NCBI GenBank assembly: GCA_951406725.2
Contig: OX597842.1
Location: 8,556,001 to 8,620,000 of the forward strand
Reading direction: 5' to 3'
Source: Octopus vulgaris
Lineage: Eukaryota
Length of the DNA: 64,000 nucleotides
Below are positions 13,922 to 37,668 of the stretch, in pieces; positions within the stretch are counted from its first letter, which is position 1, and the number at the start of each line of letters is the position of its first letter. The notes beneath the pieces were generated by a model that searched no databases, was not told the origin of the DNA, and was given only the letters and a program-made list of their open reading frames with translations. Both the position numbers and the translations under genes were made by a program.

Positions 13922-14702
13922 CTGTCGAAGAGAAACAGAGTAAAGGCATGAGTATGAGTGGCATCTTGAGTGTAACTGTGAGTGACAATGAAACGTTGGT
14001 TGAGCGTGAGTATTTGTATATGAGTGAGACCTTGTGCTTGTATCTGTGTATGAGTGTTGTTTGAGAGATAATTAGTATACATGAGACCTTGAGTGTGAGT
14101 GAGACATTGAGTGTGAGTAGAAACATGAACATATGCACCTATATACACACTCACATACATTTTTCATTATTTCAAATGTCTGATTTTCTATACTTGTAAA
14201 GACTAGTCCCACTTAGTCCAGAATATTAGATTCGAGGCTTGAAATTTTGGGGGAGGGGACTAGTCAATTAGATCGCCCCCAGTGTTTCACTGGTACTTAA
14301 TTTATCGACCCTGAAAAAAGGCAAAGTCGACCTCAGCGGGATTTGAACTCAGAGCATTAAGACAGACAAATTGCTGCTAAACGTTTGTCCGGTGTGCTAA
14401 CAACTCTGCCAGCTTGCTCCTGTAATAACAATAAGCGTTCTACTTAAGGTACAAGACTTGAAATTGGAGCGGGGGGAGGGGTTATTCAGTTACATCGACC
14501 CTAGAATTTGGCTGGTACACAGGAGTGGCTGTGTGGTAAGTTGCTTGCTTACCAACCACATGGTTCCAGGTTCAGTCCCACTGCGTGGCACCTTGGGCAA
14601 GTGTCTTCTACTATAGCCTCGGGCCGACCAAAGCCTTGTGAGTGGATTTGGTAGACGGAAACTGAAAGAAGCCCGTCGTATATATGTATGTATATATATA
14701 TA

Positions 14703-14908
14703 TAGTTAATCCAAACATGAAAACACAAAGAGAAAACACAACGCGAGGACGTGGAGCAAATATAGTATTATTGGACGCTCAGGAAGGAAGGGAAGAAGGA
14801 GGGTTTTACGTTTCGAGCGGAGCTCTCATCAGAAACATAGGAAAAGGAAAGATCCAAAGAAGGGAAGACGGAGGAAAAAAATCGCCAACGGTACACACGC
14901 GGTCACAT
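14703..14908 (-). mobile_element. Penelope-like terminal fragment inserted in the (TA)n centre of a SINE
   Basis: Splits the SINE at 14519-15140; carries the intact hammerhead motif; homologous to 770-963. Confidence 0.6.
14803..14836 (-). ncRNA. Minimal type I hammerhead ribozyme motif (Penelope-type)
   Basis: GUUU-CUGAUGA-GAGC(UCC)GCUC-GAAA-CG-UA-AAAC: all core nucleotides, stems I and II, and a palindromic ACGU stem III. Confidence 0.7.
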
Positions 14909-15230
14909 GTGTGTGTATATGTTTGTTTGTGTGTGTGTGTTTGTCCCCCCTAACATCGCTTGACAACCGATGCTGGTGTGTTTACGTCCCCGTAACTTAG
15001 CAGTTCGGCAAAAGAGACCAATAGAATAAGTACTAGGCTTCCAAAGAATACGTCCTGAGGTTTATTTGCTCAACTAAAGGTGGTGCTCCAGCATGGCCAC
15101 AGTCAAATGACTGAAACAAGTAAAAGAGTAAAAAGAATGACCACTGAAAGGCTGCAAGGCTCAGTCAAATTTCAACTCAAAACAGGAAATTGAACAAAAT
15201 GCTGCAAAGAATTTTGCCCGGCATGTTTAA

Positions 15231-15450
15231 CCCTTTTTTTACCAACCCGGCTGAAACCGGTTCTGGCTCTGAGTAAAAATGTCCTGTTTTCAAAAGTTTT
15301 GAATTAAAATCTTCCACCAAACCTTAGTCACAATTTATGTTCCTAACACTAGCTGAATGATAACTAAGTTATTTCACTAAATTCTTTCTTATATTTAAAG
15401 TAATTGAAAGAAACACATAGCATCTCAACAGAAATACAGTAATGAAAGGG
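15231..15450. mobile_element. piggyBac-type MITE (220 bp)
   Basis: TTAA|CCCTTT...AAAGGG|TTAA termini. Confidence 0.8.
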
Positions 15451-15504
15451 TTAATGATTCAGCCATTTTGTCACCTCATGAGTTTTAATAAAAATGATTT
15501 CACA

Positions 15505-16620
15505 TTTAATCTTTGAGCATTCAGGTCACTCTATCAAATGTAAGGCTTATTTATCCACATTGTTCTGAATTAATCAAGCATTATCTTGTAGCTTGGAGGT
15601 TTCAGTGATGTGATTGTATATTTTAAGAATGGCATTTTAGGATAGATGTGTGAGAGACCAGATTTGGCTAGTTTGAACATAAAACAGACAGAATATATTT
15701 GAGTGGGATATAACCATTTTAACCCTCAAGCATTCAGATTACTCTGTGAAATGTAAGGCTTATTTATTTGTATTGTTTTGAATTGATCATGCATTATCTC
15801 ATAGCTTTGAGATTTCAATGATGTGATCATATTAGTTTAGAATGACATTGTAGGGTAGGTTTAAGAGGTTGGAGAACTAGAGTATTTGGGCTGGATATGG
15901 CCAGTTTAACTCTTCAGCACTCAGATTAATCCACCAAATGTAACGCTTTATCATGCATTATCTCATAGCTTTAAGATTTCAATGATGTGATCATATTAGT
16001 TTAGAATGACATTGTAGAAGAGGTGTGAGAGGTTGGATCTGGTCAGTTTAACCTTCCAGCATTCTCATTACTTGTTCAGGTGTAAATCTTATTTATTCAT
16101 ATTGCTTGGAGTTAATCCTGCATTATCTCGTAGCTCTGAGATTGCAATGATGCGACTGTTTATATTTAGAATGACATTAAAGGTCAGGTATGAGAGGCGG
16201 GATCTGGCCTTCAAAACAGGTTGAGTATAGCTGGTTTAACTGTCTAGTATTCAGGTCACTCTATCAAATGTAATGCTTATTTATCCACATTGTTCTGAAT
16301 TAATCAAGCATTATCTCGTAGCTTGGAGGTTTCAATGATGTGACTGGTTATTTTAAGAATGGCATTTTAGGATAGATAAGAGAGATACCAGATTTGGCTA
16401 GTTTGAACTTAAAACAGACAGAATATATTTGAGTGGGATATAACCAGTTTAACCCTCAAGCATTCAGATTTCTCTGTGAAATGTAATTCTTATTTATTCG
16501 CATTGTTTTGAATTGATCCTGAATTATTTCTTAGCTTAAGATTTCAATGATGTGATTGCAAGTTTTTAGAAATGATATTGCAGAGTTGGATCTGACCAGT
16601 TTAACCTTTTAGCATTCAGG
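15505..16620. repeat. Diverged tandem array of ~140-215 bp units starting tttaaccct..agcattcag
   Basis: Unit starts near 15507, 15718, 15905, 16047, 16235, 16448 and 16600. Confidence 0.8.
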
Positions 16621-16815
16621 TTCTTCGGTCAAACATAACACTCTTTGCTCTCTTTTACTCTTTTGACTTGTTTCAGTCATTTGACTGCGGCCATGCTGGA
16701 GCGATGGTGCTGGGGACAAACACAGACAAACACAGACACACACACATAAACCAAAGCCTTGTGAGTGGATTTGGTAGACGGAAACTGAAAGAAGCCCATC
16801 ATATATATATATATC

Positions 16816-16849
<34 letters not shown>

Positions 16850-16997
16850 GTTTGTGTGTGTGTTTGTCCCCACATCTCTTGACAACTGATGCTTGACAAC
16901 CAATGTTGGTGTGTTTACATCCCCAAAACTTAGCAGTTCAGTAAAAGACACCAATAGAATAAGTTCTAGGCTAACAGAGAGTAAGTCCTGGGGTCGA

Positions 16998-17047
<50 letters not shown>

Positions 17048-17589
17048 CAATTAGAAAATAGAGGGGATCAATAGGTGGTTCATCAATTTTTAGACATTAT
17101 ATTATGTTAACTTATTTATTTACTAAAATGACAATTACAAGAATATACATACATGTATAACATATTAACCTCTAACTTTCTTGGAATTAATATATGTGTG
17201 TGTGTGTGTGTGTGTGTATGTGTGTGTGTGTTTGACAGTCTTCATTCAGTTTCCGTCTCCCAAATCCACTCACAAGGCTTTAGTCAGTCTGAGGTTATAG
17301 TAGAAGACACTTGCTCAAGGTGCCACACTATGGGACTGAACTTGGAACTATGTGGTTGGGAAGCGTAACTTCTTACCACACAGCCATGCCTGCGCCTACG
17401 TATACATATACACACATATGCACACACACAGACACACACACAGGCACACACACATGGGTTCACAAATAGTTCACAGGCACAGCAATAAGGATATGGATTT
17501 TAGTTTGTTATGGTGGGGTCACAGTTTCAATCTCACCATACAGATCCTTGGGCTACTAATCAACTGACCAACAGATAAAGTGACCGATT

Positions 17590-17852
17590 AACCGACCGAC
17601 CGACCAACCGACAAACTGTTCGACCAACCGACCGACCAACCGTCCGACCGACCGTCCGACCGACCGACCAACCGACCGACCAAACGTCTGACCAAACGAC
17701 CGACCGACTGACCGACCGACCGACCGACCAACCGTCCAACCGACCGTCCGACCGACCGACCAACCGATCGACCGACCGACTGACCGACCGTCCGACCAAC
17801 CGACCGACCGACCAACCGTCCGACCGACCAACCAACCAACCGACCGACCGAC
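17590..17852. repeat. CpG-rich (CCGA)n-type tetranucleotide microsatellite
   Basis: Imperfect accg/acca/gtcc repeats. Confidence 0.9.
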
Positions 17853-17946
17853 TGGCAAACTGTCCCACCAACCAAACAGCCAGCCAGCCAGCTACCGAAA
17901 CGCAACACTAGTAAACTAAGAGGTTGCTTAATGTGTTCAGGATGTA

Positions 17947-17960
17947 ATTACCATGGTAAC
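17947..17960. promoter_or_regulatory. X-box (RFX)-like palindrome ATTACCATGGTAAC
   Basis: 13/14 match to GTTACCATGGTAAC, in a short non-repetitive island. Confidence 0.3.
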
Positions 17961-17995
17961 AGGAAGGCCAGAAGTGGGTGACAATTAATTCCACT

Positions 17996-18460
17996 TGATG
18001 GAATGGGCTAATCCAGGAAGATCAGAGGAGTGGGGGGGAGATAGAAGGGGGAAGAGTGTATATACCTGTATATGTGTGTGCGTGTCTGTACATACAAAAA
18101 TATATATGTATGCCTTACACACATATGTATATATATATATATATATATTTACACATGCACATACACAAATATATATATATTCACACACATACATATATTT
18201 ATATAGAATATTTACATACACATACATGTGTATGTATATATATATATATATAAACATATACACAGACATATATGCACATACATTATTATTATGTGTATAT
18301 ACATATATAAATATATATATATATATATAAATATATATATATAAATATATATATATAAAAAAACATATATATGTATATATATATATATATATATACATAT
18401 GTATTATGCATGTGTATATATATATATATACATATATATGTATGTATGTATGTATATGTG

Positions 18461-18501
<41 letters not shown>

Positions 18502-20390
18502 GAATGTATGTGTGTGTGTATATATATATATATGTATGCATGTATGTATGTATGTATATGTGTGTGTATATATATATATATGTATGCATGTATGTATGTA
18601 TATATAGATATAGATATAGATATTGATATAAAGCACTTATTAACCCAAAGAAGCACTCATTAGCCTGTACATATTTGCATATTCCTCTACAGTCAAAAAG
18701 ACCCATTAAAGACAACCAAAGGTATAAATGCTTTGAATGAGGGCAGAGAAAGACAGCAGCAGCAGCAGCAGTGGGGGGTGGGGTATGAGGGGTAGTTCCT
18801 GAGATGCCATGTAAAAAAAAAAAAATGGGATAAAAAAAAAAGGAAAACAAAAAAAGAGAGCAATATCTTGTGAATTGGGCCAGATGCTAGTCAGTTGCAT
18901 ATTCAATCAGATGGCACAGGAATGGTGTTATACCTAATGACTGGCATAGCAGCATATCACCCTCACCCTCACCCTCAGCACCACCAGCAGTAATAGAAGT
19001 GGCAGCAGTAGCAACTGCTTCAAAGGGCAAAAGGAGACACTCCAGAAAGAAGCAGCAAGAGAGATGCATCAAGTTGTCATTGGCTGTGTGGTAAGATGCT
19101 TGTTTCGTCAGCCACTACGTTCTGGGTTCAAATTCCGCCAAGGTCGACTTTGTCTTTCAGCCTTTCGGGGTCGTTAAATTAAGTACCAGTTACACACTGG
19201 GGTGATGGAATGGGCTAATCCAGGAAGATCAGAGGAGTGGGGGGGAGATAGAAGGGGGAAGAGTGTATATACCTGTATATGTGTGTGCGTGTCTGTACAT
19301 ACAAAAATATATATGTATGCCTTACACACATATGTATATATATATATATATATATATATTTACACATGCACATACACAAATATATATATATTCACACACA
19401 TACATATATTTATATAGAATATTTACATACACATACATGTGTATGTATATATATATATATATAAACATATACACAGACATATATGCACATACATTATTAT
19501 TATGTGTATATACATATATATAATATATATATATATATATAAATATATATATATAAAAAAACATATATATGTTATATATATATATATATATATATACATA
19601 TGTATTATGCATGTGTATATATATATATATACATATATATGTATGTATGTATGTATGTATATGTGCGTGTGTGTATATATATATATATATATACATATGT
19701 ATGTGTGTGTGTATATATATATATATGTATGCATGTATGTATGTATGTATATGTGTGTGTATATATATATATGTATGCATGTATGTATGTATATATAGAT
19801 ATAGATATAGATATTGATATAAAGCACTTATTAACCCAAAGAAGCACTCATTAGCCTGTACATATTTGCATATTCCTCTACAGTCAAAAAGGCCCATTAA
19901 AGACAACCAAAGGTATAAATGCTTTGAATGAGGGCAGAGAAAGACAGCAGCAGCAGCAGTGGGGGGTGGAGTATGGGGGGTAGTTCCTGAGATGCCATGT
20001 AAAAAAAAAATGGGATAAAAAAAAAAGGAAAACAAAAAAAAAGAGAGCAATATCTTGTGAATTGGGCCAGATGCTAGTCAGTTGCATATTCAATCAGATG
20101 GCACAGGAATGGTGTTATACCTAATGACTGGCATAGCAGCATATCACCCTCACCCTCACCATCATCACCAGCAGCAGTAATAGAAGTGGCAGCAGTAGCA
20201 ACTGCTTCAAAGGGCAAAAGGAGACACTCCAGAAAGAAGCAGCGAGAGAGATGCATCAAGTTGTCATTGGCTGCGTGGTAAGATGCTTGTTTCGTCAGCC
20301 ACTACGTTCTGGGTTCAAATTCCGCCAAGGTCGACTTTGTCTTTCAGCCTTTCGGGGTCGTTAAATTAACTACCAGTTACACACTGGGGT
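17996..20390. repeat. Tandem duplication of ~1.2 kb (17996-19202 / 19203-20390)
   Basis: Near-identical unique and microsatellite sequence in both copies. Confidence 0.9.
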
Positions 20391-21214
20391 CGATGTAATC
20401 TATGTTTAGCCCCTTATGGGCCATAAAGAAGTAAGAAGCTTGTTTCTTGACCACATGGTTCTGGGTTTTATTTTGTTATGGTGGGGTCTCAGTTTCAATC
20501 TCACCATACAGATCCTTGGGCTAGCAATCAACTGACCAACAGACAAAGTGACCAACCAACCCTCTGACCGACCGTCCGACCGACTGACCAACCGTCCAAC
20601 TGGCAAACTGTGTTATACCTAATGACTGGCATAGCAGCATATCACCCTCACCCTCACCATCATCACCAGCACTAACAGCAACAGCAATTGCTTCAAAGGG
20701 CAAAAAGAGATGCTCCAAAAAGAAGCAGCAAGAGAGATGCATCAAGTAGTCAGATGAAGTCATCAAAGTGTCATTGGCTGTGTGGTAAGAAGCTTGTGTC
20801 GTCTGCCACTACGTTCTGAGTTCAAATTCCGCCAAGGTCGACTTTGCCTTTCATCCTTTCAGGGTCGATAAATTAAGTACCAGTTACACACTGGGGTCGA
20901 TGTAATCTATGTTTAACCCCTTGTGGGCCATAAAGAAATAAGAAGCAGATCCATGTGCCTTCATGATATATATATATATGGAGATGTACTTGCATAGCAA
21001 GCGACCTGATCTGAGATCGTGTGCTGAAGCAAAAACAATTACAGCGTGTAATTTTGTCAGTGAATAAGTCGTGGTCTCAAAGTGACGAAAATATTTTGGC
21101 AAATTAAATTTAAATGTTGAAGTGAATCTAACGGTTTTTGTGAGTTTTTAAATGGCTTACAAACACCTTCCATGCTGCAATTGTTTATATATATATATAT
21201 GTAGTTGTGGTGAT

Positions 21215-21597
21215 ACCTGTGCCGGTGGCACATAAAAAGCACCATCCGAACTTGGCTGATGCCAGTGCCGCCTTGACTGGCTTCTGTGCCAGTGGCACGT
21301 AAAAAGCACCATCTGAGCGTGACCGATGACAGCGCCGCCTTGACTGGCTTCCGTGCCGGTGGCACATTAAAAGCACCAACCGATTGTGGCCGCTGCCAGA
21401 CGCCCCTGGCACCTGTGCCGGTGGCACGTAAAAAGCACCCACTACACTCGCGGAGTGGTTGGCGTTAGGAAGGGCATCCAGCTGTAGAAACACTGCCAGA
21501 TCAGACTGGAGCCTGGTGCAGCCTCCTGGCTTCCCAAACCCCGGTCAAACCGTCCAACCCGTGCTAGCACGGAAAACGGACATTAAACGATGATGAT
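21215..21597 (+). mobile_element. Interspersed element family E with an internal ~60-67 bp tandem unit and a (TGA)n tail
   Basis: Four copies of ctgtgccggtggcacgtaaaaagcacc, then ggaagggcatccagctgtagaaac...aaacgatgatgat. Relatives at 10.7k, 10.9-11.46k, 43.65-44.0k, 60.1k(-) and 63.2k(-). Confidence 0.7.
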
Positions 21598-22741
21598 ATA
21601 TATATATATATATTCTTTTGTTCTTTTATTTGTTTCAGTCATTTGACTGTGGCAATGCTGGAGCACTGCCTTTAGTCAAGCAAATCGACCCCAGGACTTA
21701 TTCTTTGTAAGCCTAATACTTATTCTATCGGTCTCTCTTGCTGAACCGCTAAGTGACGGGAACATAAACACACCAGTATCAGTTGTCAAGCACTGTTGGG
21801 AGGACAAACACAGACACACAAAAATACACATATATATATATGACAGGCTTCTTTCAGTTTCCGTCTACCAAATCCACTCACAAGGCTTTGTTCAACATCC
21901 TTAAACAATCCTTATTCAGAGACCTTTTGAGCGGGATGGGCTACTCGACCTGAAGAAAATTCTAACTGGGCCCCACCTGCAAGGTCATGCGCTGTTTATC
22001 TTGATATGCGATCACCATCTCACGCACATATGGTTGTGATGCATGTGCCTAGTGTACCCTTATCAGACAGGTAGTCATGATGGGTATAATGGGCTTCATA
22101 TATTTTACCCCAGTGTCACTTTGATGACATGCACTGCTATCTCACTCAATAATAATAATAATAATAATAATAACAATAATAATAATAATAATAACAACAA
22201 TAATGTTAATAATATAACAACAGGAAATAGAGAAATGATCTGAAAATAGAGACAACCAAATGTGGAGAGAGAAAATAGTAACAATCCCTTTGAATAAGAA
22301 GTGCATTTTTAATTTTTTGTAGCCAATGAATGTATAAAAAAGCTGTTGGTTGTATGAAAAGACATATATGTCACCAGTGTATATAAAAAAATAAGTGTGC
22401 ACAGCATACACTTAAAAAGAATTGTATTTTTTCTCGTAACAAAAATACGTATAAACAAGATGTGTGTTGAGTATAATTATTAATTATTATGTTACTTTTA
22501 AGCAATTAACCTTTCTGAGTACACTTTAGTTTATTATGTATACATCGGTTTCTTTTATGTGCACTGGTTGCAAAATGTATGCATGTGAAGTCATGCACAG
22601 TTTAGAGATAACAGTGGGCACCTTGAGTTCAAAAAAAGAAGATGCAATGAAATTAACAAAACCAAAAACTGAGAACTCATGAAGATGCACTACACATGGA
22701 AAATATTGACATGAAGCACAGCAACACATTGCATAGTGTAC

Positions 22742-22750
22742 CTCAGAATT
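22742..22750 (-). CDS. Weak candidate 9-nt microexon (AAT TCT GAG = NSE)
   Basis: Minus strand gtgctcaatttgtcttcatag|AATTCTGAG|gtacac, inside a repeat-poor island; the donor is suboptimal. Confidence 0.25.
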
Positions 22751-22845
22751 CTATGAAGACAAATTGAGCACTTACTAGGCATAGCACATATTGCAGAGAA
22801 TATTCTTAGGTTTACACATAACAAAATAGCACTATGAGGTACAGT

Positions 22846-22890
<45 letters not shown>

Positions 22891-23023
22891 CATATATATT
22901 GCGTAGAGTACAACCAACATAATAAAAAATATGAAACCAAACCAAAAATAATATTGTAAGTACAGAAGGCACACAGAGCTGTGCTCATGGTACAGCAGTG
23001 AAAGCACGCAAGACTACTTGACG

Positions 23024-23082
<59 letters not shown>

Positions 23083-25295
23083 GATGGTGTAATGGAACAG
23101 AACCAAAACGGAACTAAGGTTGTTGTTCTCAAGGCCAATGCACATATGCATATAGTAATAATGATGATGATGATGATTTCTTTTATATTGTTGTATCACG
23201 GGTGAAAGATGATGATGACGGTGATGACAATGATGTTGACGATGACAATGATGTTGATGATGACGATGATGGTGATGATGAAATAATGATGATGATGAAA
23301 TAATGATGATGATGATGGTGGTGGTGGTGGTGGTGGTGGTGGTGTTGACGATGACGATGACGATGTTAGTACTGATGGTGGCAATGATGATGATAATGAT
23401 GATGGTGGTGGTACTGGTGGTGATGACAATGATGATGACGATGATGGGTAACAGAAGGGCAGGAGCATACCACGGAAGGGGGTGGGCATTACATTAGAAT
23501 CAAATAAGGAAGGAATAAAGAATGCTGCAGACACACACATTTCACAAAGGAAATATTCGTTGGATTCTGGAGAGAAGGGTCACCCTCCAGGGTTATAAAG
23601 TCCTTGTTTTATTTACTTATTTAACCCTTCAGTATTCAGTATTCAGATTATTTTGCCAAATTTAATGCTTATTTACTCTCCATTTTACTCTGTTACTTGT
23701 TTCAGTCATTTAACTGTGGCCATGCTGGAGCACCGCCTTTAGTCGAGCAAATCGACCCCAGGACTTATTCTTTGTAAGCCTAGTAATTATTCTATCAGTC
23801 TCTTTTGCCGAACCGCTAAGTGACGGGGACGTAAACATACCAGAATCAGTTGTCAAGCAATGCTAGGGGGACAAACACAGACACACAAACATACACAGAC
23901 CCACACACACACACACACGCATGCGCACACACACATACATACATATATACATACATATGACAGGCTTCTTTCAGTTTCCGTCTACCAAATCCACTCACAA
24001 GCCTTTGGTCAGCCCGAGGCTACAGAGTAGAAGAAACTTGACCAAGGTGCCACGCAGTGGGACTGAACCCGGAACCATGTGTTTCGTAAGCAAGCTACTT
24101 ACCACACAGCCACTCCTACACCTAATTCATTGTCATGAATTAACCATGCCTTATCATTGCAGCTTCAAGATTTTGATGATGTAATTGTTCATTTTCAGAA
24201 AGACATTGCCAGGAAGGTGTGAGAGACTGGATCTGGTTGGTTTAAACATTGAATAGGTAGAAAATTTGAGCCGGTTATGGCTGGTTTAAATCCCAAAGGC
24301 ATTTAAACAGGCCACATTCAGCCGAAATATTTCACCTGCTAATTTCAACATAAAGCAGGCATTTCATCTGGTGTGCTAACAATTCTGCCAGCTCGCTGCC
24401 TTGATAACATTAGTAATAATAATAATCCTTTCTACTATAGGCACATGGCCTAAAATTTGAGGGGAGGGGGCTAGATGATTAAATCGACCTCAATGTTTCA
24501 TTGGTAGTTAATTTATTGACCCCAAAAGGATGGAAGCAAAGTTGACCCCGGTGGAATTTGAACTCAAAACGTAAAGACAGACGAAATACCGCTAAGCATT
24601 TCGCTTGACATGCTAACAATTCTGCCAACTCATGGCCTTAAATAGAAATAATAATAATAATAATAATAATCCTTTCTACTATAGGCGCAAGGCCTGAAAT
24701 TTGAGGTGAGAGGGCCGGTTGATTAGATCGACCCCCAGTACACAACTGGTACTTAATTTCTTAACCCCGAAAAGATGAAAGGCAAAGTTGACCTCGGTGG
24801 AATTTGAACTCAGAATGAAGTGACAGACAAAATACTGCTAAGCATTTCGCCCGACGTGCTAACGATTCTGCCAGCTCGTCACCTTTAATAATAATAATAA
24901 TTAATTCTTTTATTGGCCACAAGAGCTGACAAAAATTAATTATAACATAAAGGGACAAAACAGGATGAAAGGTTACAAAGGGTTTTGTCCGTTTGTGAAA
25001 AAATCCGAGTAAAAAAGCAGTTTAACAACACCCAACAGCGTTGTAGGGCGCTGGACAGACGGACCCGTTAAACTGCTTGGGGTCTGGTTTGGTCCAGACC
25101 TCCATGTGGATTAATAATAATAATAATAATAATAATAATTCTTGCTGCAATAGGTATTAGGCCTGAAATCTGGGTGCTTGCCAGGGACTTATTTCACTGA
25201 CCCCAAAAAAGAGAAAATAAAAAAGGAAAAAAAAAGATGAAACGCAAATTCGATCCTTAGCAGGATTTGAACTCAGAACATAAAGAAATATAACA

Positions 25296-25340
<45 letters not shown>

Positions 25341-25341
25341 T

Positions 25342-25383
<42 letters not shown>

Positions 25384-25433
25384 CGACGACAATGGCAATG
25401 ATGATGATGATGATGATGACGACGACAATGGCA

Positions 25434-25476
<43 letters not shown>

Positions 25477-25543
25477 CTTCATTTGCCATCAGGGTGTCAT
25501 GGATAAGGGGGGAATAACACAGACAGGCATAAACAACAACATC

Positions 25544-25591
<48 letters not shown>

Positions 25592-25757
25592 CACGAAATC
25601 ACGGTAGTGAGTGGGAGGGGGGAAAGATTGTGTAAGGAGAGGGTGGAGTGAGGTGTGAGGTTGGATGGCTTAATTAATTGGCAAGGAGGACAGAACAGAA
25701 CGGACAGACAGACTGACAGACAGACAGAAAGTCTTGGAGAATTAGAAGTTCACTTAC

Positions 25758-25769
25758 CTTGAGACAGTT
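25758..25769 (-). CDS. Candidate 12-nt microexon (AAC TGT CTC AAG = NCLK) of the CTTNBP2-like gene
   Basis: Minus strand reads long polypyrimidine tract-ttcttgctaaccattcctatag|AACTGTCTCAAG|gtaagtg: branch point-like ctaac, AG, and a consensus donor. Frame-compatible with the phase-0 exon at 13921. Confidence 0.6.
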
Positions 25770-26041
25770 CTATAGGAATGGTTAGCAAGAAAAAAGGGAA
25801 AGAGAAGAGAGAATGGAATTGTGAGACAGAGAGAGAGAGAGAAATAGGGAGGAGGGAGAGAGAGAGGGGGAGAGATAGAGAGAGGGTAGAAAGATATGGG
25901 GTATATCACTAACGCATACACACACACACACATGCATCTTTGTCATCACCAACAGGACTGTCATCGTCAGCATCAGTTTTGTTGTTGTTGTTGCTAACAA
26001 CTGCCATTGCTCCGACCACCTTCGCTGCCACGATCAATGTC

Positions 26042-26075
<34 letters not shown>

Positions 26076-26384
26076 TCATCACCATCACTGGCAACCACCA
26101 CAACCACCATCAGCACCATCATTATCATTATCGCCATCACCATCATCCTTATCACCATTGCCACCATCAGCACTATCATCATCATAATCACTGGCAACCA
26201 CCACCACCACCACCATCATTATCATCATCATCATCATCATCACCATCACCATCACCACCATCATCTAGTCATCACCTTCATCATAATCATCATCATCATC
26301 ATTGCTGTAATCATCACCATCACCACCACAAGTATGATCATCAGCAGCAGCACAACCAACACCACCATGATAATTGTCATCATC

Positions 26385-26620
26385 ATCACCATCATCATTG
26401 TTGACAACACCACCACTACCATCATCATTGTTGACAACACCACCACTACCATCATCATCATCATCATCACCATCATCATTGTTGACAACACCACCACTAC
26501 CATCATCATTGTTGACAACACCACCACTACCATCATCATTGTTGACAACACCACCACTACCATCATCATCATCATCATCACCATCATCATTGTTGACAAC
26601 ACCACCACTACCATCATCAT
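26385..26620. repeat. 30-bp minisatellite (accatcatcattgttgacaacaccaccact) within a CAT/CAC tract
   Basis: Six copies of the gttgacaac core. Confidence 0.85.
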
Positions 26621-26859
26621 CACCGCTATCGTCCACACCATCCACCACCACCCACTTACATCAACATCAACATTAACAGGAGTAATTAAAGAATGAGAAA
26701 CAAGCTTTCAGTGGCCCCTTGACCTATTAAAAATAGCAGCCAAGTTCCTCCACAGAAAAACACAAAGGAAGGACACACTAGAAAATTTATTTTTAGATAT
26801 GCAAAAAAAAAAAAATAGAAACAAGCAAAAAAAACAGGATGGAAGTGGAGAGTGTCATG

Positions 26860-27280
26860 GATGGAATGTCTTCAATCAATTTTGTTGAGTCAGGACTGAC
26901 CTGGGGCCAACCAACAATAACAGAGACTAATATTCATACTATACATTAGGTAATGTAGTCCTAGATACACTATGTCTGAATATGAGACGGGATGGTCACA
27001 GCTGGAACATCTTTGATCATAGGTCTACTGCATCAAGACTGACCTGGGGCTAAACAACAACTATATCCATTAATACGGCTATATTGTACATTAGATAATG
27101 TAGTCTTAGATACACTATGTCTGAATAAAAGATGGGGTGGTCACAGCTGGAGCATCTCTGATTGTAGGTCTGGTGGATCAGGACTGACTTGGGGCTAAAA
27201 AACAACAGCATTTATAGCTGTTATTACTAACTGCTATACTGTACATTAGGTAATGCACTCCTAGATACACTACGCCAGAA
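26860..27280. repeat. ~130-150 bp satellite, three to four units; reverse complement of the 49.5-50.45k array
   Basis: Repeats of taatgtagtcctagatacactatg...ggtcacagctggaac...gacctggggctaaac. Confidence 0.8.
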
Positions 27281-27501
27281 TGAAATAAAGCATTTTATGC
27301 AGTATCTAGGTGAGACCTGAGGTTTTTATAGGCGCAGGAGTGGCTGTGTGGTAAGTAGCTTGCTTACCAGCCACATGGTTCCGGGTTCAGTCCCACTGCG
27401 TGGCACCTTGGGCAAGTGTTTTCTACTATAGCCTTGGGCCAACCGAAGCCTTGTGAGTGGATTTGGTAGACGGAAACTGAAAGAAGCCTGTCGTATATAT
27501 G

Positions 27502-27530
<29 letters not shown>

Positions 27531-27532
<2 letters not shown>

Positions 27533-27917
27533 TGGGATACTTGGAACAAAACCTATATAAAAAAATTGAAGAGAACTATGGCATGACCTTTAAAAGATAT
27601 ATAGAGGACACATGGAGAAGATACCTCGATGGTTGTTTCCTAATTTGGACCAAATTCCTAGAAAATCTGGAAGAATTCAGCACCCTCCTCAACAATCTAC
27701 ATCCTAGTCACAAATTCACAAGAGAAATGAGCAGCACACAATTACCATTTCTTGACATAATGGTAATTATTTTTAATTACCAAAATCACAACTGATATTT
27801 ATTACAAAAGCACAGATATATACCAGTACCTAAATTTCAAATCATGCCACCCAACACATACAAAACACAACATCCTGTACTGTTTAGCCAGGAAAATTTG
27901 TACCATAGTCGATGATC

Positions 27918-27920
<3 letters not shown>
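27531..27920 (+). mobile_element. Penelope-like element reverse transcriptase fragment (degenerate)
   Basis: WRRYLDGCFLIW (YxDD box degenerate), NNLHPSHKFTRE, LPFLDIMV, YLNFKSCHP; inserted in the (TA)n of a SINE. Confidence 0.8.
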
Positions 27921-27965
<45 letters not shown>

Positions 27966-27968
27966 CAC

Positions 27969-28000
<32 letters not shown>

Positions 28001-28929
28001 ATATGTTTGTGTGTCTGTATTTGTCCCCCTAGCATTGCTTGACAACCGATGCTGGTGTGTTTACGTCCCCATAACTTAGCAGTTCGGCAAAGAGACCGAT
28101 AGAATAAGTACTAGGCTACAAAGAATAAGTCCTGGGGTCGAATTAGGTGTAGGAGTGGCTGTGTGGAGTAGCTTGCTTACGAAACACATGGTTCCGGGTT
28201 CAGTCCCACTGCGTGGCACCTTGGTCAAGACTCTTAGCCTCGGGCTGACCAAAGGCTTGTGAGTGGATTTGGTAGACGGAAACTGAAAGAAGCCTGTCAT
28301 ATGTATGTACATCCTTGTTGTATGTGTGTGTGTGTGTGTGTGTTTGTATGTGTTTGTGTATGTTTGAGTGTGTGTGTGTGTGTGTGTCACATTTGCCCAA
28401 AACAACAGAATCCCATTCACTGGTATGTTTACGTCCCCGTCACTTAGCGGTTCGGCAAAAGAGACTGATAGAATAATTACTAGGCTTACAAAGAATAAGT
28501 CCTGGGGTCGATTTGCTCGAATAAAGGCTGTGCTCCAGCATGGCCACAGTCACATGACTGAAACAAGTAAGAGAGTATCCACATTACTGCAAATAAGTTA
28601 ACACAGTAGGCTCTACATGATATCTCACTTTGCTGAAAACAGCAGCTAAATAACTTCACAAGCACACATAAACATATTCATACAGACAAATGACTCAGAG
28701 GGGGGAAGGTCAGAGGTCAAGTGTATCAAAAGTGATTGTTGTTGTTGCTGTTGATTTTAAGTGGTTGAAGGAGATGAGTAAGGAGTCATTGCCAAGATTA
28801 CATCCTTGTTGTACGTGTGTGTGTGTGTGTGTTTGTATGTGAGTATGTGTGTTTGTGTGGTGTGTATGTGTTTGTATGTGTGTGTGTGTTTGTATGTGTT
28901 TGTATATGTTTGAGTGTGTGTGTGTGTCA

Positions 28930-30135
28930 CATCTGCCCCAAACAACAGAATCCGATTCACTGTTAGTTTTGATGCAACATATTTATATACTAACATTCCA
29001 CATGATTTGGGACTGACTGCCATAAAATATCGGAGTCAAGAGACATTAGAGAAGCAATCCTCAATAGATTTACTGTAACCGTCATACTAGACACAGTCAG
29101 CCTCATCAATGAAAATAATACATTCTTTTCCAATGGAAAAACTACCTCCAAATTTAAGGCACAGCAATGGGGACGCAATTTGCTCCAGTTTTCGCAAACT
29201 CAGTATTGGGATACTTGGAACAAAACCTATATTAAAAAATTGAAGAGAACTACAGCATGACCTTTAAAAGATATATAGAGGACACATGGAGAAGATACCT
29301 CGATGGTTGTTTTCTAATTTGGACCGAATCCCTAGAAAATCTGGAAGAATTCAGCACCCTTCTTAACAATTTACATCCTAGTCACAAATTCACAAGAGAA
29401 ATGAGCACCACACAATTACCATTTCTTGACATAATGGTAATTAAAAACAACACAAGGCACAGCAATGGGGACGCAATTTGCTCCAGTTTTCGCAAACTCA
29501 GTATTGGGATACTTGGAACAAAACCTATATAAAAAAAAAAATTAAGAGAACTATGGCATGACCTTTAAAAGATATATAAAGGACACATGGGGAAGATACC
29601 TCAATGGTTGTTTCCTAATTTGGACCAAATTCCTAGAAAATCTGGAAGAATTCAGCACCCTCCTCAACAATCTACATCCTAGTCACAAATTCACAAGAGA
29701 AATGAGCAGCACACAATTACCATTTCTTGACATAATGGTAATTATTTTTAATTACCAAAATCACAACTGATATTTATTACAAAAGCACAGATATATACCA
29801 GTACCTAAATTTCAAATCATGTTACCCAACAAATACAAAACACAACAGTACAGGTACTGTTTAGCCAGAAAAATTTGTCGATGATCCAAATACCAGGAAC
29901 ATATGACTTATAGAACTCAAAGGATTTCTGCTCAAGCAAAACTACCTACTCCTACTTATAGAAAATAGCATACAATGAGCAAAGGAGATACCTACAGAAC
30001 AACTTAGGGCAACACAAAAAAGATGACCCCATCAAAGGATCACAATACCATTTCTAGTAACACACAATCTGCATCAACAAAACATTTTTAACATCATCAT
30101 CAAAATAAATTTGCCAATCGTAAAACAAAGTGAAA
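28930..30135 (+). mobile_element. Penelope-like RT pseudogene with an internal tandem duplication
   Basis: LVSFDATYLYTNIPH, a GTAMG-like motif and two copies of the WRRYLD/N...LPFLDIMV segment, with frameshifts and stops. Confidence 0.8.
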
Positions 30136-30142
30136 AATTAAA

Positions 30143-30863
30143 CCCTTTTGTTACCAACCCAGCTGAAACTGGCCCTGGCTCTATAGTACAAATGCCTTGT
30201 TTTCATAAGTTTTGAGTTAAAATCTTCCACCAAACCTTAGTCACAGTTTATGTTCCTAACATTAGCTGAATGATAACTAAGTTATTTTATTAAATTCTTT
30301 GTTATATTTAAAATTAATTGAAAGAAACACAGAACATCTCAACAGAAATACAGTAATGAAAGGGTTAAAGTCACCGTGATATTTTTAACCCTTTTGATAT
30401 AAATCTGGCTGAAACCGGCTCTGGCTTTGTAGTACAAATGTTTTGTTTTCAGAAGTTTTGAATTAAAAATCTTCCACCAAACCTTAATCACAACCTATGT
30501 TCCTAACACTGGCTTAATGATAATGAAGTTATTTTACTAAATTCTTTGTTATATTTAAAATTGATTGAAAGAAACACAGAGCACCTCAACAGAAGTATGG
30601 TAACAAAAGGCTTAAAATATACAATAGAGAAACAATTCTTAATCCTTTTGATATCAACCCGGCTGAAACCACCTCTGGCTCTGTAGTACAAATGTCTTGT
30701 TTTTATAAGTTTTGAGTTAAAATCTTCCACCAAACCTTAGTCAAAATTCATGTTCCTAACATTAGCTGAATGATAACTAAGTTATTTTACTAAATTCTTT
30801 GTTATATTTAAAGTAATTGAAAGAAACACAGAGCATCTCAAAATAAATACAGTAATGAAAGGG
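30143..30863. mobile_element. Three adjacent copies of the same 220-bp piggyBac-type MITE
   Basis: Copies at about 30143-30364, 30389-30611 and 30643-30863, each bounded by TTAA-like sites and homologous to 15231-15450. Confidence 0.8.
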
Positions 30864-31734
30864 TTAAGGGTACACTTGTCTGTGGAGTGCTCAGTCACTA
30901 GGACATAAAGAATATATATACATGCATATCTTTTACTTTTTACTCATTTCTGTCATCAGACTGTGGCCATGCTGGAGCACCGCCAACGAAATATTCCCCA
31001 GAATTTATTTTCTTTTTAAGCCTGTTACTTATTCTATCGGTCTCTTTTGCTGAAACCCTAAGTCATAGGACCATAAACAAACCAACACTGGTTCATAGGG
31101 GACAGACACAAACACAATAACAAACACACACACACATATATGCAACTAGCTTCTTTCAGTTTCTGTCTACCAAATTCGCTCACATGTCCTTGGTTGGCCC
31201 AAGGCTATAGTAGAAGTCGCATGCCCAAGGTGCCACGCAGTGGGACTGAAACCAGAACCATGTGGTTGGGAATTAATCTCAGTCATGCCTGCAGCTTATA
31301 TAACTATCAATTTCAAATGTTAGCACAAAGCCAGCAATTTCAGGTGTGCAGGTAAGTCGATAACATCAACCCCAATACACAACTGGTACTTAATTTATCA
31401 ACCCTGAAAGGATGAAAGGCAAAGCCGACCTCGGTGGAATTTGAACTTAGATTGTAGAGATGGGTGAAATGCCACATTCTGCAGTTCACTACTTTAAAAA
31501 TATACTATAATACTCTTGTGTTTTTCTCTGTCACAACATATGAGAAAGGAAGGGGTGATGGTAAGATGGTAGTGGAAGCATATATACCAAATCCACTCAC
31601 AAGGCTTTGGTCAGCCCGAGGCCATATTAGAAGACACTTGTCCAAGGTGTCACGCAGTGGAACTGAATCTGAAACCATGTGGTTGGTAAGCAAGCTACTT
31701 ACCACACAGCCACTCCTATGTCTATGATGTATAC

Positions 31735-33095
31735 TAATGAGGAAGACCTCTACATGGTAACCAGATATGTTAGAAATACCTGCCAAATCTCCCTCAAATT
31801 GCCCCTTTCTGTTTTATGTCTGTATATATGAACCAATGAAGGAAATCTCTACATCACAACTAGACCTGCTAGAAACAACAGCCAAATTCCTCTCAAATCA
31901 CATTCTGCTGTCTTTATGTCTGTATATACCTATGCATGAGCTAACAAGGGAAACCTCTATATGGTAACTGGACTTCTTAGAAATAGCAGCCAAATCTCTC
32001 TCAGACCACATGCTTGTGTCTTAAAATACATTAAACAATCTAGACCTGTTAGAAATAGCAGCCAAATCTCCCTCAAATCACATCCTACTGACCCCATCTG
32101 TATATATGTATGAGCTAACAAGGGAAACCTCTATAGGTAACTGGACTTCTTAGAAATAGCAGCCAAATCTTTCTCAGACCATATGTTTGTGTCTTAAAAT
32201 ACATTAAACAATCTAGACCTGTTAGAAATAGCAGCCAAATCTTCCCCAAATCATATCCTAATGCCTATGTGTGCATGACATTGAAGGCAACCTCTTCATG
32301 GTAACTTGATATACTACAAATAGCAGGCAAATCTCCCCAAGACACACCCAACAGGTTTATATATGTATATATGCTAATGAAGGAGACCTCTACATGGTAA
32401 TTAGATATGTTAGAAACAGCAGTGAAATCTCTCTCAAACCACATACTTGTATCTTAAAATGCATTAAACAATATAGACCTGTTAGAAATAGCAGCCAAAT
32501 CTCCCTCAAATCACACCCTACTGTCTTACATCTGTATATAATGTATAAGCCAACAAGGGAAGTCTCTTTATGGTAACTCGAATTGTTAGAAACAGCAGCC
32601 AAATCTACCTCAAAATGACATCCTACTATCTCATGTATACATATATGTATATGACATTGTTGGCAACCTCTACATGGTAACTAGATATGTTGGAAATAGC
32701 AGTCAAATCATTCTCAAATCACCTTGTTGTGTCTTAGAATATATTAAGCAATGCAGACCTGCTAGAAATAGCTGTCAAATCTGCCTCAAACCACACCTTA
32801 CTACCTTACTTTTGTATATATGAGCCAATGAGGGAAACCTCTACATGGGAGCTAGACACGCTAGAAATAGCAGTCAAATCTCCTTCAAATCACATCCCAC
32901 TGTCTTATGTATGTATGAGCCAATGATGGAAACTTCTACATGGTCACTAAATATGCTAGAAATAGCAGCCAAATCTCCTTCAAATCACAGCCTACTGTCT
33001 TCTGTATGAGCCAATGATGGAAACTTCAACATGGTCACTAGATATGCTAGAAATAGCAGTCAAATCTCCTTCAAATCACATCCTAATGTAATAGA
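31735..33095. repeat. Diverged satellite with core tagaaatagcagccaaatctccctcaaatcaca
   Basis: The core recurs every ~75-110 bp over 1.35 kb. Confidence 0.85.
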
Positions 33096-33284
33096 ATACA
33101 TTAAATGTAGTGTTTGATATAGCTCTAAAATTAATTAAAAAAATTTAATTAACTCGACTTCAGGCTGAACAACAACAATGACTACAACAGCAAAAACATT
33201 GCCAGTAACAGACATTACAACCACGACCACCACCATATGCACGTCCCAACCACTTGTACTGTTTGCTATACTGATACACGCATA

Positions 33285-33432
33285 CCACCGTCATCGCTGC
33301 CACCATCACCACATACCACCACCACCACCACCACCAACACTACCACCACCACACAGGCAAACATGGCATTATCACCATCACCATCACCACCACTGTCATT
33401 CTGGTATACCTAGCATCACCATCAACTTCATC

Positions 33433-33477
<45 letters not shown>

Positions 33478-34357
33478 TTCATCTTCATCATCATCATCAT
33501 CTTCATCAATATCATCACTGCCATTATCATCATCATCATCATCATTCTCTACCATTATCATCATCATCATCATCATCATCTTCATCAACATCATCACTGC
33601 CATTATCATCATCATCATCATCAACATCATCACTGCCATTATCATCATCAGCATCATTGTCTACCATCATCATCATCATCATCATCATCACTGCCATTAT
33701 CATCATCATCATCACTGCCATTATCATCATCATCATCATTGCCATCGTCATAATCATCATCATCATCATCATCATTATATACAGCAGCCAGCTGTTATCA
33801 CCATTTCATACCAGTGGCTCTCCATTGCCACCACCACCACCACAGACTGGTAGCATCATCATCACCATCATCATGTACAGCACTAACAATACCACAACCA
33901 CCACCATCGCTGCAACTCCCCCTCCCCACTGCCACTGCAACAATCACCACAATCATCGCCCCCACCCCGTCCCATCATTATCATCATCATCATCATCATC
34001 ATCATCACAACTGGTAACATCTTCACCACAACCACCACCACCACCACCACCACCATTAACATCATCATCAGCAGCAGCATAATCACCACCTCCATATTCA
34101 CCAAATCCACCACCACCACAACCATCATCATAAGCAGCAGCAGCAGTAGCGTAATCATCAACTCCACCTAACCACCACCACTACCACCACCACAACCATC
34201 ATCATAAGCAGCAGCAGCAGTAGCATAATCATCAACTCCACCTTACCACCACCACTACCACCACCACAACCACCATCACCACCACCACCACCACAACCAC
34301 CATCGTCATCATCATCATCATCATCATCATCATCGCCACCACCACAACAGCCACCAC

Positions 34358-34394
<37 letters not shown>

Positions 34395-36770
34395 GCCACC
34401 ACAACCATCACCTCCACCATCACTACTACCAGCATCAGCAGTATCATGCCACCACCACCACCACCACCACCACCACCACAACCACCACCACTGCCATCAT
34501 CATCATCGTCATCATCATCATCATCATCATCATCACCCCATCCCCACCCCGCCAAAACAGTCACTGGCCGCAGTAGTAAACAGAGAACAGCACATCTGAT
34601 TGCCATCATTATTGCTGCTGCCAGGAAGAGTAGAAGCACAGCAAGCAGAGGCTGAAGAGGAAGAGAGAACCATCAACAAACAGCACCACCTGTGTCAGCT
34701 GTTGTGGAGATGAGGATGGGGGGGGGAAGCGAGAAGAGGAGGGGGGGGAGGAGAAAGAAGGAGGGAATAGAGGGGAGGGGAAGGGGAGGTGGTGGAGGAG
34801 AGGGAGGAGGAGGAGAATTGGAAGAAGGGAAAGAAGGTAGGAAGGAAGGAAGGAAGGAAGGAAGGAAGGAAGGAAGGAAGGAAGGAAGGAAGGAAGGAAG
34901 GAAGGAAGGAAAGAGGTGTAGAGAGAGAGAGAGAAAGAGGAAGAAGGAGAAGAAGAAGAATTGGAAGAAGAAAAAGAAGAAGAAGAATCGGAAGAAGGAA
35001 AAGAAGAAGAAGAAGAAGAAGAAGAAGAAGAAGAAGAAGAAGAAGAAGAAGAAGAAGAAGAAGAAGAAGAAGAAAAGGAAGGAATGAAAGGAGGAAGGGA
35101 GAAAGGAGAGAAGGAAAAAGAAGTGCAGAGGGAGAGAGAAAGAAAAGAAAGGAAGGAAGAAATGGAGAGAGAGAGAAAGAAGAAAAGGAAAGAAGGAAGA
35201 AAACAAACGGGGAAAGAAAGGAAGGAACGAAGGCAAGCAGGAAAGAAGGAATAAATAAAGAAAGAAAGAAAGAAAGAAAGAAAGAATGAAAGAGTGAAAG
35301 AGATGCACAACAAAGATGAAGGAAAGAAAAAAACAGGGAATGAAAGAAAGCGAAGGAGAAATAGGAAAAGAAAGGCTGAGAGAAGAAAAAAAGCCAAGAA
35401 AGAAGGGAAAGAAAAGGATTTTTAAAAATGCCAAAAAAAAGTATATATATATGAAGAGAGCAAGTAATCTCCTCCCCTGCACCCCACCCCACCCCCAGTG
35501 TCTTGGATTGCCACCACCACCACCATTACCACCATTGCAACCAGTAGCATCATCATCATCAGCACCACTGCAGCTGCCACAGGCATCACCATCGCCACTG
35601 CCATCGCCGCTGCTGTTTATCGCCATGACAACAGGTGGCTGGCAGCCTTATCATCACCATCCGCGTCATTATCACCATCACCACCAGCACCACCACCACC
35701 ACCACGATCAGCGCATCATCATCATCATCATCATCAGTATCATTAGCATCATCACCACCATGCCACCACCATCACCATCACCAACATTATCATCATCGTC
35801 GTCATCATTATCATCATCACCACCACCATCATCATCATTGCATCACCATCGTCAGAATCATCATCACCACCACCAACACCATCAGTATCATCATCATCAT
35901 TATTACCATCATCACCACCACCATCACCAACAGTATCATCATCATCGCCATCATTATCATCACCGCTACAACCACCACCACCACCACCATCATCATTGCA
36001 TCACCACCACCATCATCAACAATATCATCATCATCACCCCCACAACCACCAACACCAACACCATCGTCATCATTGCATCACCATCGTCAGTATCATCACC
36101 ACCACCACCACCACCACCGCCATCATCATTACCCTCATCACCACCACCATCACCATCGCAACCACCACCTCCATCATCATCATCACCACCACCACCGCCA
36201 CCATCATTGCCCTCATCACCACCACCATCACCATCGTTATCATCATCACCATCACAACCACCACCTACATCATTATCATCATCATCATCACCACCATCAT
36301 TGCCCTCATCACCATCATCATCACCATCACAACCTCCATCATCATCATCATCATCTTGTTTCCTACTTTCATCCCGACCGACCGCAGCCTCCATCCATGC
36401 TCTTCCTTGTAACAAGCCAACACAGAAGCACTCTGCCATTTATCCTACACTCCTGCCACCTCCACCACCACCACCACCAACAACACCACCACCGCCACCA
36501 TCCCCAATCATCCCATCTGCCAACTTCCCCACCACCCCCACCACCGCCACAAAATTCCATAGCCACTACAGCTACTAATACTACCATTTACCAACACCAC
36601 CACTGTTACTACTAATGCTACCTCTACCACTTGCTCTAGTAATAGAGTTGTTACTACTGCCAACACCACCACCACCACGACTATAAAGACCATAAATTAG
36701 TACTACTACTACTACTACTACTAACCATGACTATTACTACTACTACTACTACCACTGCTGTTGCTACTAT
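33285..36770. repeat. Low-complexity block: (CAT/CAC)n - purine tract - (CAT/CAC)n
   Basis: Trinucleotide mosaics flank a purine-rich tract at ~34710-35420 containing (GGAA)n and (GAA)n. Confidence 0.9.
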
Positions 36771-37023
36771 TGGCACTTTGCCAATGCTGTCATGACTTGT
36801 TATTGTAGTTAACAGGCAGTGTATGTCTGACATACATACGTGTGCGTGTGTCTGTGTGTGTGTGTGTGTGTGTATACACTTGTGGGGGGTGTGTTGGTAT
36901 GTCTGTGAGAGTTTGTGAGTATGCACATACACAGTGGAAACTGCTTATTGTAATCATAGGTTATGCAATCAACCAATTATTGTTATCAAATTATATATAT
37001 ATATATATATGCATATATGTATG

Positions 37024-37049
<26 letters not shown>

Positions 37050-37079
<30 letters not shown>

Positions 37080-37589: not shown

Positions 37590-37668
<79 letters not shown>

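What the first reader, a model, noticed from the sequence alone, without database searches (positions are those of the whole stretch)
25740..25900. Cryptic 12-nt in-frame microexon (NCLK) upstream of the CortBP2 domain
Seen: about 12 kb upstream of the first recognisable exon, the minus strand has a >100-nt CT-rich tract, then ttcttgctaaccattcctatag|AACTGTCTCAAG|gtaagt. It has a branch point-like ctaac, a UGC just upstream, a consensus donor and a length divisible by 3, and splicing gives ...NCLK-RHPKMDL. Known: bilaterian neural microexons controlled by Srrm3/4 (Srrm234 eMIC) typically have strong 5' sites, an extended AG-free pyrimidine zone and UGC motifs near the 3' site; CTTNBP2 is a neuronal cortactin/STRIPAK scaffold. 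Inference: an unannotated, possibly neuron-specific cephalopod microexon that gene predictors would miss.
Basis: partly seen in the sequence, partly recalled or inferred. Interest (0 to 1): 0.72.

Follow-up and report, generated by a model that had tools for sequence, protein, structure and literature searches.

The report
Candidate 12-base exon in octopus CTTNBP2
A 62-kb intron of the octopus gene for a cortactin-binding scaffold protein holds a 12-base stretch with the sequence signs of a neuron-specific mini-exon, which, if spliced in (not yet seen in RNA), would likely weaken a conserved predicted kinase site.

Summary
The sequence is as described. A 12-nt in-frame unit lies at 25758-25769 (minus strand), with a 137-nt AG-free CU-rich zone, UGC, CUAAC and a consensus donor. 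It sits in the 62-kb first intron of the octopus CTTNBP2/Nausicaa orthologue; exon 1 lies outside the window and ends in phase 0. The layout is rare: 0 full matches in 1.54 million control strand-bases. A filter set on a presumed ancestral MADD microexon in this genome also picks it out, and the eMIC regulator exons are present. Inclusion is not shown: contigs from 4 of 4 runs skip it, no mollusc protein examined has it, and looser patterns occur genome-wide at chance level. The junction splits a conserved N-T-L-K-R motif matching the MST kinase consensus, and the four residues (NCLK) repeat it with Cys for Thr. Locusts also have a 15-residue cassette at the same junction. Verdict: probable neural microexon (about 0.55), new member of a known class, unproven. 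The scan noted microexons in other genes of this genome, not at this locus.

The parts
25772..25908 (-). AG-free, CU-rich upstream zone (137 nt, 86% pyrimidine; 27 UCUC/CUCU tetramers in the last 100 nt)
25781..25787 (-). Overlapping UGC (25787-25785) and CUAAC branch-point-like motif (25785-25781; predicted branch A at 25782, 13 nt before the exon)
   Evidence: in run X16 position 25783 differs, giving CUUAC
25770..25771 (-). Acceptor AG (in TAG) of the candidate microexon
   Evidence: no difference listed in run X16
25758..25769 (-). Candidate 12-nt microexon, phase 0/0, reads N-C-L-K
   Evidence: inclusion not observed
25752..25757 (-). Consensus donor GTAAGT after exonic AAG
13922..64000 (-). 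Window part of intron 1 (61,922 nt in all); coding exon 1 lies 11.8 kb beyond the window end at G000:C29:8631844-8631936
13820..13921 (-). Exon 2, start of the CortBP2 domain; joined directly to exon 1 in all 4 contig sets laid
11481..11720 (-). Exon 3 (CortBP2 domain)
8863..8970 (-). Exon 4 (coiled coil)
3818..5608 (-). Exon 5 (coiled coil, Ser/Pro-rich tail with a PPPVP proline patch), to the in-frame stop

Best explanation
The 12-base unit is likely a normally skipped, neuron-enriched microexon of the octopus CTTNBP2/Nausicaa gene that would add four residues inside a conserved, predicted kinase site just ahead of the coiled-coil domain. Shown: the unit, its frame, its cis motifs, exon skipping as the assembled form, the eMIC-encoding exons elsewhere in the genome, and conservation of T29, K31, R32 and P34 across the K31|R32 junction. 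Inferred for splicing: by default exon 1 joins exon 2 across the 62-kb intron because 12 nt is too short for normal exon definition. Where Srrm234 carries its eMIC domain (neurons), the CU tract, UGC and a branch point 13 nt from the AG would let U2AF/SF1 assemble, and the strong donor would complete the exon. Inferred for the protein: the skip form has N-T-L-K-R in a predicted disordered tail, matching the MST/GCK-type STE20 consensus. Inclusion puts Asn at +3 instead of Arg and rebuilds N-x-L-K-R with Cys where Thr was, so it would lower phosphorylation of Thr29 and could retune the scaffold's behaviour in the striatin complex.
For: (1) Rarity: 0 in 1.54 M control strand-bases; a tight pattern built on the candidate gave 3 matches genome-wide, this one included, against 0 control. 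(2) Positive control: the octopus MADD intron where I infer the ancestral 9-nt neural microexon lies holds one 9-nt unit with the same layout (G000:C3:94770770). A filter that admits it picked that unit alone from 250 kb of MADD sense strand and this candidate alone from intron 1. It gave 3 acceptors (4 units, none both G-ending and in frame) in 1.894 M control strand-bases. (3) The cis code matches PMC8797185 section 10. (4) SRRM_C match over the cut-off plus the second eMIC exon 24 kb downstream. That happened for 2 of 2113 background donors and 1 of 37 AAG-ending ones; 0.013 is expected given the Lys. (6) Of 56 aligned homologues, 52 have T29, 53 K31, 51 R32 and 51 P34, with 3 lacking the region. 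Residues 1-33 have pLDDT under 50. The MST consensus peptide contains N-T-L-R-R and is most sensitive at +1 and +3 (PMC6445471 passages); CTTNBP2's N-terminal region binds striatin, which binds MST kinases (PMC3496612 passages). (7) Schistocerca RefSeq isoforms exist with and without a 15-residue insert at the same junction. (8) Exon, AG and donor show no difference in another DNA-like run, X16.
Against: No RNA shows inclusion: 4 of 4 runs from 4 studies had one contig each joining exon 1 to exon 2 (tissues not given, and contigs drop minor forms). Among 507 proteins held, 196 read straight through the junction and 11 had an insert (8 Schistocerca, 1 Strigamia, 2 that look like intron read-through); none is a named mollusc record and none has NCLK; the other 300 could not be scored. 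One of the two listed substitutions in X16 hits the CUAAC, although the yUnAy form and UGC survive. The looser genome-wide pattern shows no excess over control once SINE copies are removed, about 48 against 48, so chance look-alikes exist in a 2.8-Gb, microsatellite-rich genome and the window was chosen from many. The MADD control is itself inferred, not shown spliced, and a second 9-nt unit with a weak donor lies in the preceding MADD intron. Phosphorylation of Thr29 is untested.
Confidence: 0.55

Rival explanations
1. It is a pseudo-exon: a CT microsatellite next to a chance branch-point word, AG and donor, never or only negligibly spliced.
For: Skipped in 4 of 4 contig sets; absent from all mollusc proteins seen; CUAAC differs in X16; loose pattern at control level genome-wide; about 76 plain YAG-short-GTRAG units are expected in any 62 kb.
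Against: The full layout is absent from 1.5-1.9 M control strand-bases. It is on the sense strand, in frame, with a consensus donor, and its peptide repeats the end of exon 1. It is not a remnant of the SINE family tested: none of 51 profile hits at E up to 100 overlaps 25600-25950.
Confidence: 0.27
2. It is a real cassette exon but included at a low level in many tissues, or in a non-neural tissue, without needing eMIC.
For: Its donor and pyrimidine tract are stronger than those of the MADD control and of typical fly eMIC exons. The fly gene works in non-neural cells, and the one fly exon listed for it is a 40-nt exon classed as ordinary alternative, not eMIC-dependent (PMC8797185 table S2).
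Against: PMC8797185 reports that the long AG-free zone with UCUC tract, UGC and CUAAY is largely specific to eMIC targets and not general to short exons.
Confidence: 0.12
3. The donor belongs to a non-coding alternative first exon from an internal promoter, or to a decayed duplicate of exon 1, giving a shorter protein that starts at the Met in exon 2.
For: Locust and termite records include isoforms starting at that Met, and cockroach and termite records have two different N-termini that both end in S-N-T-L-K. The intron flank after the donor is weakly similar to that after exon 1 (p about 0.01-0.11 by control).
Against: A stop codon lies in frame immediately before the unit. No similarity to exon 1 upstream of the 12 nt was seen. 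No other upstream partner of exon 2 appeared in 4 runs. A first exon would not need the acceptor-side motifs.
Confidence: 0.06

Closest known systems
eMIC (SRRM3/4, Srrm234)-dependent neural microexons of bilaterians (PMC8797185, section 10 and passages read)
   Same: Length under 28 nt, in frame, long AG exclusion zone, UCUC-rich tract, UGC near the 3' site, CUAAY branch point; regulator exons present in this genome.
   Different: Inclusion, neural bias and eMIC dependence are untested. Flanking introns are 50 kb and 12 kb (short in fly targets). The donor is strong, as in mammals, not weak as in fly.
Ancestral 9-nt MADD/Rab3-GEF neural microexon (bioRxiv 10.64898/2026.09.05.749416 passages; PMC8797185 table S2 rows)
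   Same: The presumed octopus copy has the same upstream layout (AG-free 92 nt, UCUC-rich, UGC).
   Different: MADD's exon is reported as conserved across bilaterians; this unit has no detected orthologue. The MADD unit has a weaker donor and no nearby CUAAC.
Schistocerca CTTNBP2NL-like 15-residue alternative segment (e.g. XP_046984282.1 with, XP_046984285.1 without)
   Same: Same gene family, same junction (K|R), in frame, begins with Asn and so also replaces the +3 Arg.
   Different: 15 residues rather than 4, no sequence likeness beyond the first residue, tissue pattern unknown; most likely independent ('type I convergence' in the preprint's terms).
CTTNBP2 / CTTNBP2NL / Drosophila Nausicaa (Pfam PF09727; PMC3496612 and PMC6602326 passages)
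   Same: Host gene: CortBP2 domain, coiled coil, proline patch.
   Different: No microexon at this junction was found in the passages or table rows seen. The N-T-L-K-R-x-P motif was scored only in the lophotrochozoan- and arthropod-type sequences I aligned.

Membership tests
eMIC-dependent neural microexon | Length 3-27 nt with canonical AG/GT, frame-preserving | tested here: met
   12 nt, phase 0/0, no stop
eMIC-dependent neural microexon | Long AG exclusion zone and UCUC-rich pyrimidine tract | tested here: met
   137 nt, 86% pyrimidine, 27 tetramers
eMIC-dependent neural microexon | UGC close to the 3' splice site and CUAAY branch point | tested here: met
   -18 and -16, overlapping; CUAAC reads CUUAC in run X16
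eMIC-dependent neural microexon | Srrm234 with eMIC-encoding exons in the genome | tested here: met
   PF15230 over cut-off at G000:C25:37317492 and second exon at 37341785; their neural expression not tested
eMIC-dependent neural microexon | Actually spliced into mRNA | tested here: inconclusive
   4 of 4 contig sets show the skip form only; contigs drop minor forms and tissues are not given
eMIC-dependent neural microexon | Higher inclusion in neural than non-neural tissue | not testable with these tools
   No raw reads or tissue labels were offered
eMIC-dependent neural microexon | Inclusion depends on the eMIC domain | not testable with these tools
   Needs a minigene or knock-down experiment
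eMIC-dependent neural microexon | Conservation in related species (common, not obligatory) | tested here: inconclusive
   Only X16 covered the place; X20, X15 and X19 laid nothing; no mollusc protein with the insert
CTTNBP2/CTTNBP2NL/Nausicaa family (host gene) | CortBP2 domain PF09727 followed by coiled coil and proline patch | tested here: met
MST/GCK-type STE20 substrate site | Thr with hydrophobic +1 and basic +2/+3 | tested here: met
   T29-L-K-R; a sequence match only
MST/GCK-type STE20 substrate site | Phosphorylated by such a kinase | not testable with these tools
   No phosphoproteomic or kinase data
Recursive splice (ratchet) site | Acceptor AG followed at once by a donor GT (definition recalled) | tested here: not met
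   AG is followed by 12 exonic bases
SINE-derived cryptic exon | Overlap with a SINE remnant | tested here: not met
   No hit of a 69-copy profile over 25600-25950; one SINE family tested

The most novel reading that the evidence does not exclude
A neural microexon that works as a splice-encoded phosphorylation switch: it cuts an ancestral MST-kinase site in a striatin-complex scaffold and rebuilds it as a Cys decoy, and insects reached the same junction independently with a different exon.
Probability: 0.12. Interest if true: 0.7.

Novelty: new member of a known kind. Interest (0 to 1): 0.38.

Why it matters
Neural microexons are a well-known class, and octopus is among the species already profiled, so one more would be a modest addition. 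This one is useful because it is cheap to test and makes a sharp prediction. It lands between the +2 and +3 residues of a motif kept from molluscs to insects that matches the consensus of kinases bound to the same complex, and locusts vary the same junction. If confirmed, it would tie neuron-specific splicing to kinase control of a cortactin/striatin scaffold and point to an unstudied regulatory site in the family.

Tried and rejected
No RNA holder was on record in the run search; all were guesses from contigs. Laying X20, X15 and X19 on 25595-25822 gave nothing, which is no evidence either way. No solved structure matched the N-terminal protein or the MADD exon, so the MADD exon position could not be confirmed that way. 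An origin by duplication of exon 1's end was tested; flank similarity was only borderline and a BLAST of the exon 1 region against the intron listed no hit at the unit among its first 30 rows. A SINE origin of the branch-point word was rejected for the family tested. A recursive splice site was rejected by sequence. A 9-nt exon to explain the 3-residue insert of O. sinensis isoform X1 was not found in intron 3. Paper searches for a prior report: microexon+octopus+eMIC 0 papers; microexon+CTTNBP2 2 papers, listing only; broader searches, listings only apart from the papers named. The 2019 paper that defined the eMIC domain is not held and is cited only through PMC8797185. Earlier scan notes: nothing near this place, by sequence or by words.

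Full report
1. The observation. The unit spans 25769-25758, after TAG and before GTAAGT. The AG-free zone is 137 nt and 86% pyrimidine; TGC starts at -18 and CTAAC at -16, so they overlap. It occurs once in the genome.

2. The host gene. Three minus-strand stretches hit Pfam CortBP2, two over the curated cut-off. The named O. vulgaris protein CAI9743349.1 (P0052) matches the window's long exon at 99.8% and has 31 further N-terminal residues with no match in the window. These map to G000:C29:8631844-8631936, 11.8 kb beyond the window. Exon 1 ends in phase 0, intron 1 is 61,922 nt, and the unit lies 50,074 nt in and 11,836 nt before exon 2. The NCLK frame is therefore right. The octopus models that reach this junction (P0052, P0053, P0056) go straight from exon 1 to exon 2.

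3. Is the layout more than chance? In 77 background loci (1,539,800 strand-bases) a plain YAG, 3-27 nt, GTRAG unit occurred 1900 times. Adding an AG-free zone of 40 or more and 70% pyrimidine left 27; adding UGC left 4; adding CUAAY as well left 0. Intron 1 had 1 such hit on the sense strand (the candidate) and 0 on the antisense strand. A tight genome-wide pattern built on the candidate gave 3 matches, this one included, against 0 for the reversed control. Both tests were tuned after seeing it. A looser pattern gave 81 against 48, and about 33 of the 81 are SINE copies by my count, leaving no excess. So loosely defined look-alikes are mostly chance, and the case rests on the stronger features.

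4. A positive control in this genome. The 2026 preprint names a 9-nt MADD exon as one of two ancestral neural microexons (passages), and the fly and mouse 9-nt exons are listed in PMC8797185 table S2. I found octopus MADD. In the 29.6-kb intron between two C-terminal exons, three units passed a loose filter and one was 9 nt long, with a 92-nt AG-free zone, a UCUC tract and UGC. That this is the orthologous intron is my inference from the mouse coordinates and from recall; another 9-nt unit with a weak donor lies one intron upstream. A filter loose enough to admit the MADD unit (AG-free 60 or more, 70% pyrimidine, 8 or more UCUC/CUCU, UGC) returned that unit alone in 250 kb of MADD sense strand and the candidate alone in intron 1. 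In 1.894 M control strand-bases it returned 4 units at 3 acceptors, none both G-ending and in frame. The features are those listed for eMIC targets in PMC8797185 section 10. Both eMIC-encoding exons of Srrm234 are present on C25 (the second exon was recognised by a recalled motif).

5. RNA evidence. No run was on record as RNA and only contigs were available. On exon 2, 4 of 4 runs from 4 studies gave one contig each whose loose end is the 3' end of exon 1, so the skip form is the assembled one. Tissues are unknown and contigs drop minor forms. This excludes constitutive inclusion but not neural or partial inclusion. On the unit itself only X16 gave cover, in one piece with 3 other letters and 16 gap positions in 228 nt. 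The exon, AG and donor show no listed change; one substitution turns CUAAC into CUUAC.

6. Relatives. Of 507 proteins held, 196 read directly across the junction and 11 carry an insert; 300 could not be scored. Eight inserts are Schistocerca isoforms with a 15-residue segment, alongside isoforms without it (15 of 49 cluster members were listed). One is a Strigamia model and two look like intron read-through. No named mollusc record has an insert. So this junction is alternatively spliced in at least one insect genus, with an unrelated sequence.

7. What inclusion would do. In an alignment of 56 homologues that I chose for moderate length and spread, T29 was in 52, L30 in 50, K31 in 53, R32 in 51 and P34 in 51; 3 lack the region. 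The junction falls between K31 and R32. The model puts residues 1-33 below pLDDT 50 and starts the first helix at 40, so this is a conserved linear motif in a probably disordered tail. PMC6445471 reports that non-PAK STE20 kinases prefer Thr, a hydrophobic +1 and basic +2/+3, uses a consensus peptide containing N-T-L-R-R, and finds the largest losses on changing +1 and +3; PKCs also favour a basic +2 (passages). PMC4407996 gives T-I/L/V-R for MST3 (passage). PMC3496612 shows that the N-terminal region of CTTNBP2 binds striatin and that striatins bind MST kinases (passages). Inclusion would replace the +3 Arg with Asn and place N-C-L-K before R32, a copy of the motif with Cys for Thr. A 3-of-4 match to the end of exon 1 arose in 2 of 2113 background donors, 1 of 125 AG-ending and 1 of 37 AAG-ending ones, with 0.013 expected given the Lys. 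The kinase link is inference from sequence only.

8. Rivals. A pseudo-exon (0.27) remains the main one, because nothing shows inclusion and the genome is large and rich in microsatellites. A non-neural or low-level cassette (0.12) fits the strong splice sites. An alternative first exon or decayed exon-1 duplicate (0.06) has precedent in insect records but little support here. Origin from the SINE family tested and a recursive site were rejected.

9. What is known. No paper in the searches made reports this exon. PMC8797185 table S2 lists only a 40-nt ordinary alternative exon for the fly gene, a 78-nt low-inclusion exon for mouse Cttnbp2, and nothing for Cttnbp2nl. The 2019 eMIC paper is not held, and the supplements of the 2026 preprint, which covers O. 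bimaculoides, could not be seen; the exon may be listed there. Earlier scan notes show microexons in other genes of this genome but nothing at this locus.

10. Verdict. It works like an eMIC-type neural microexon by every sequence feature tested, but membership is unproven because splicing and tissue pattern could not be tested. Probability about 0.55; novelty: new member of a known kind; interest 0.38.

Noticed in passing
G000:C3:94770762-94770770 (-), in L175: 9-nt in-frame unit (reads D-F-E) with a 92-nt AG-free UCUC-rich zone and UGC in a C-terminal MADD intron; likely the octopus copy of the ancestral neural MADD microexon.
   Followed up: partly
G000:C25:37317492-37317626 and 37341785 onward (+), L007 and L010: The two exons encoding the eMIC domain of Srrm234, about 24 kb apart.
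   Followed up: partly
proteins P0214, P0345-P0358 (Schistocerca): Alternative 15-residue segment at the same junction of the locust orthologue, present in several species.
   Followed up: partly
proteins P0459, P0364, P0482 against P0363, P0467, P0370: Cockroach and termite orthologues have two different N-termini that both end in the same conserved motif, suggesting duplicated alternative first exons.
   Followed up: no
window 8971-8979 (-): O. sinensis isoform X1 (P0054) has three extra residues matching the last 9 intron bases before exon 4, but here those bases are not preceded by AG; an allele difference or a model artefact.
   Followed up: partly
window 1-3800 and L005-L006: No ankyrin-repeat exons of the long CTTNBP2 form were found within about 24 kb downstream of exon 5, although bivalve, gastropod and chiton homologues have them; they may lie further on or be lost.
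   Followed up: no
window 54484-55401 (+): Five tandem 184-nt copies of the same SINE fragment.
   Followed up: no
protein P0142: In O. sinensis exon 1 is annotated as a separate short gene on another scaffold, which probably explains why its CTTNBP2NL models start at the Met in exon 2.
   Followed up: partly
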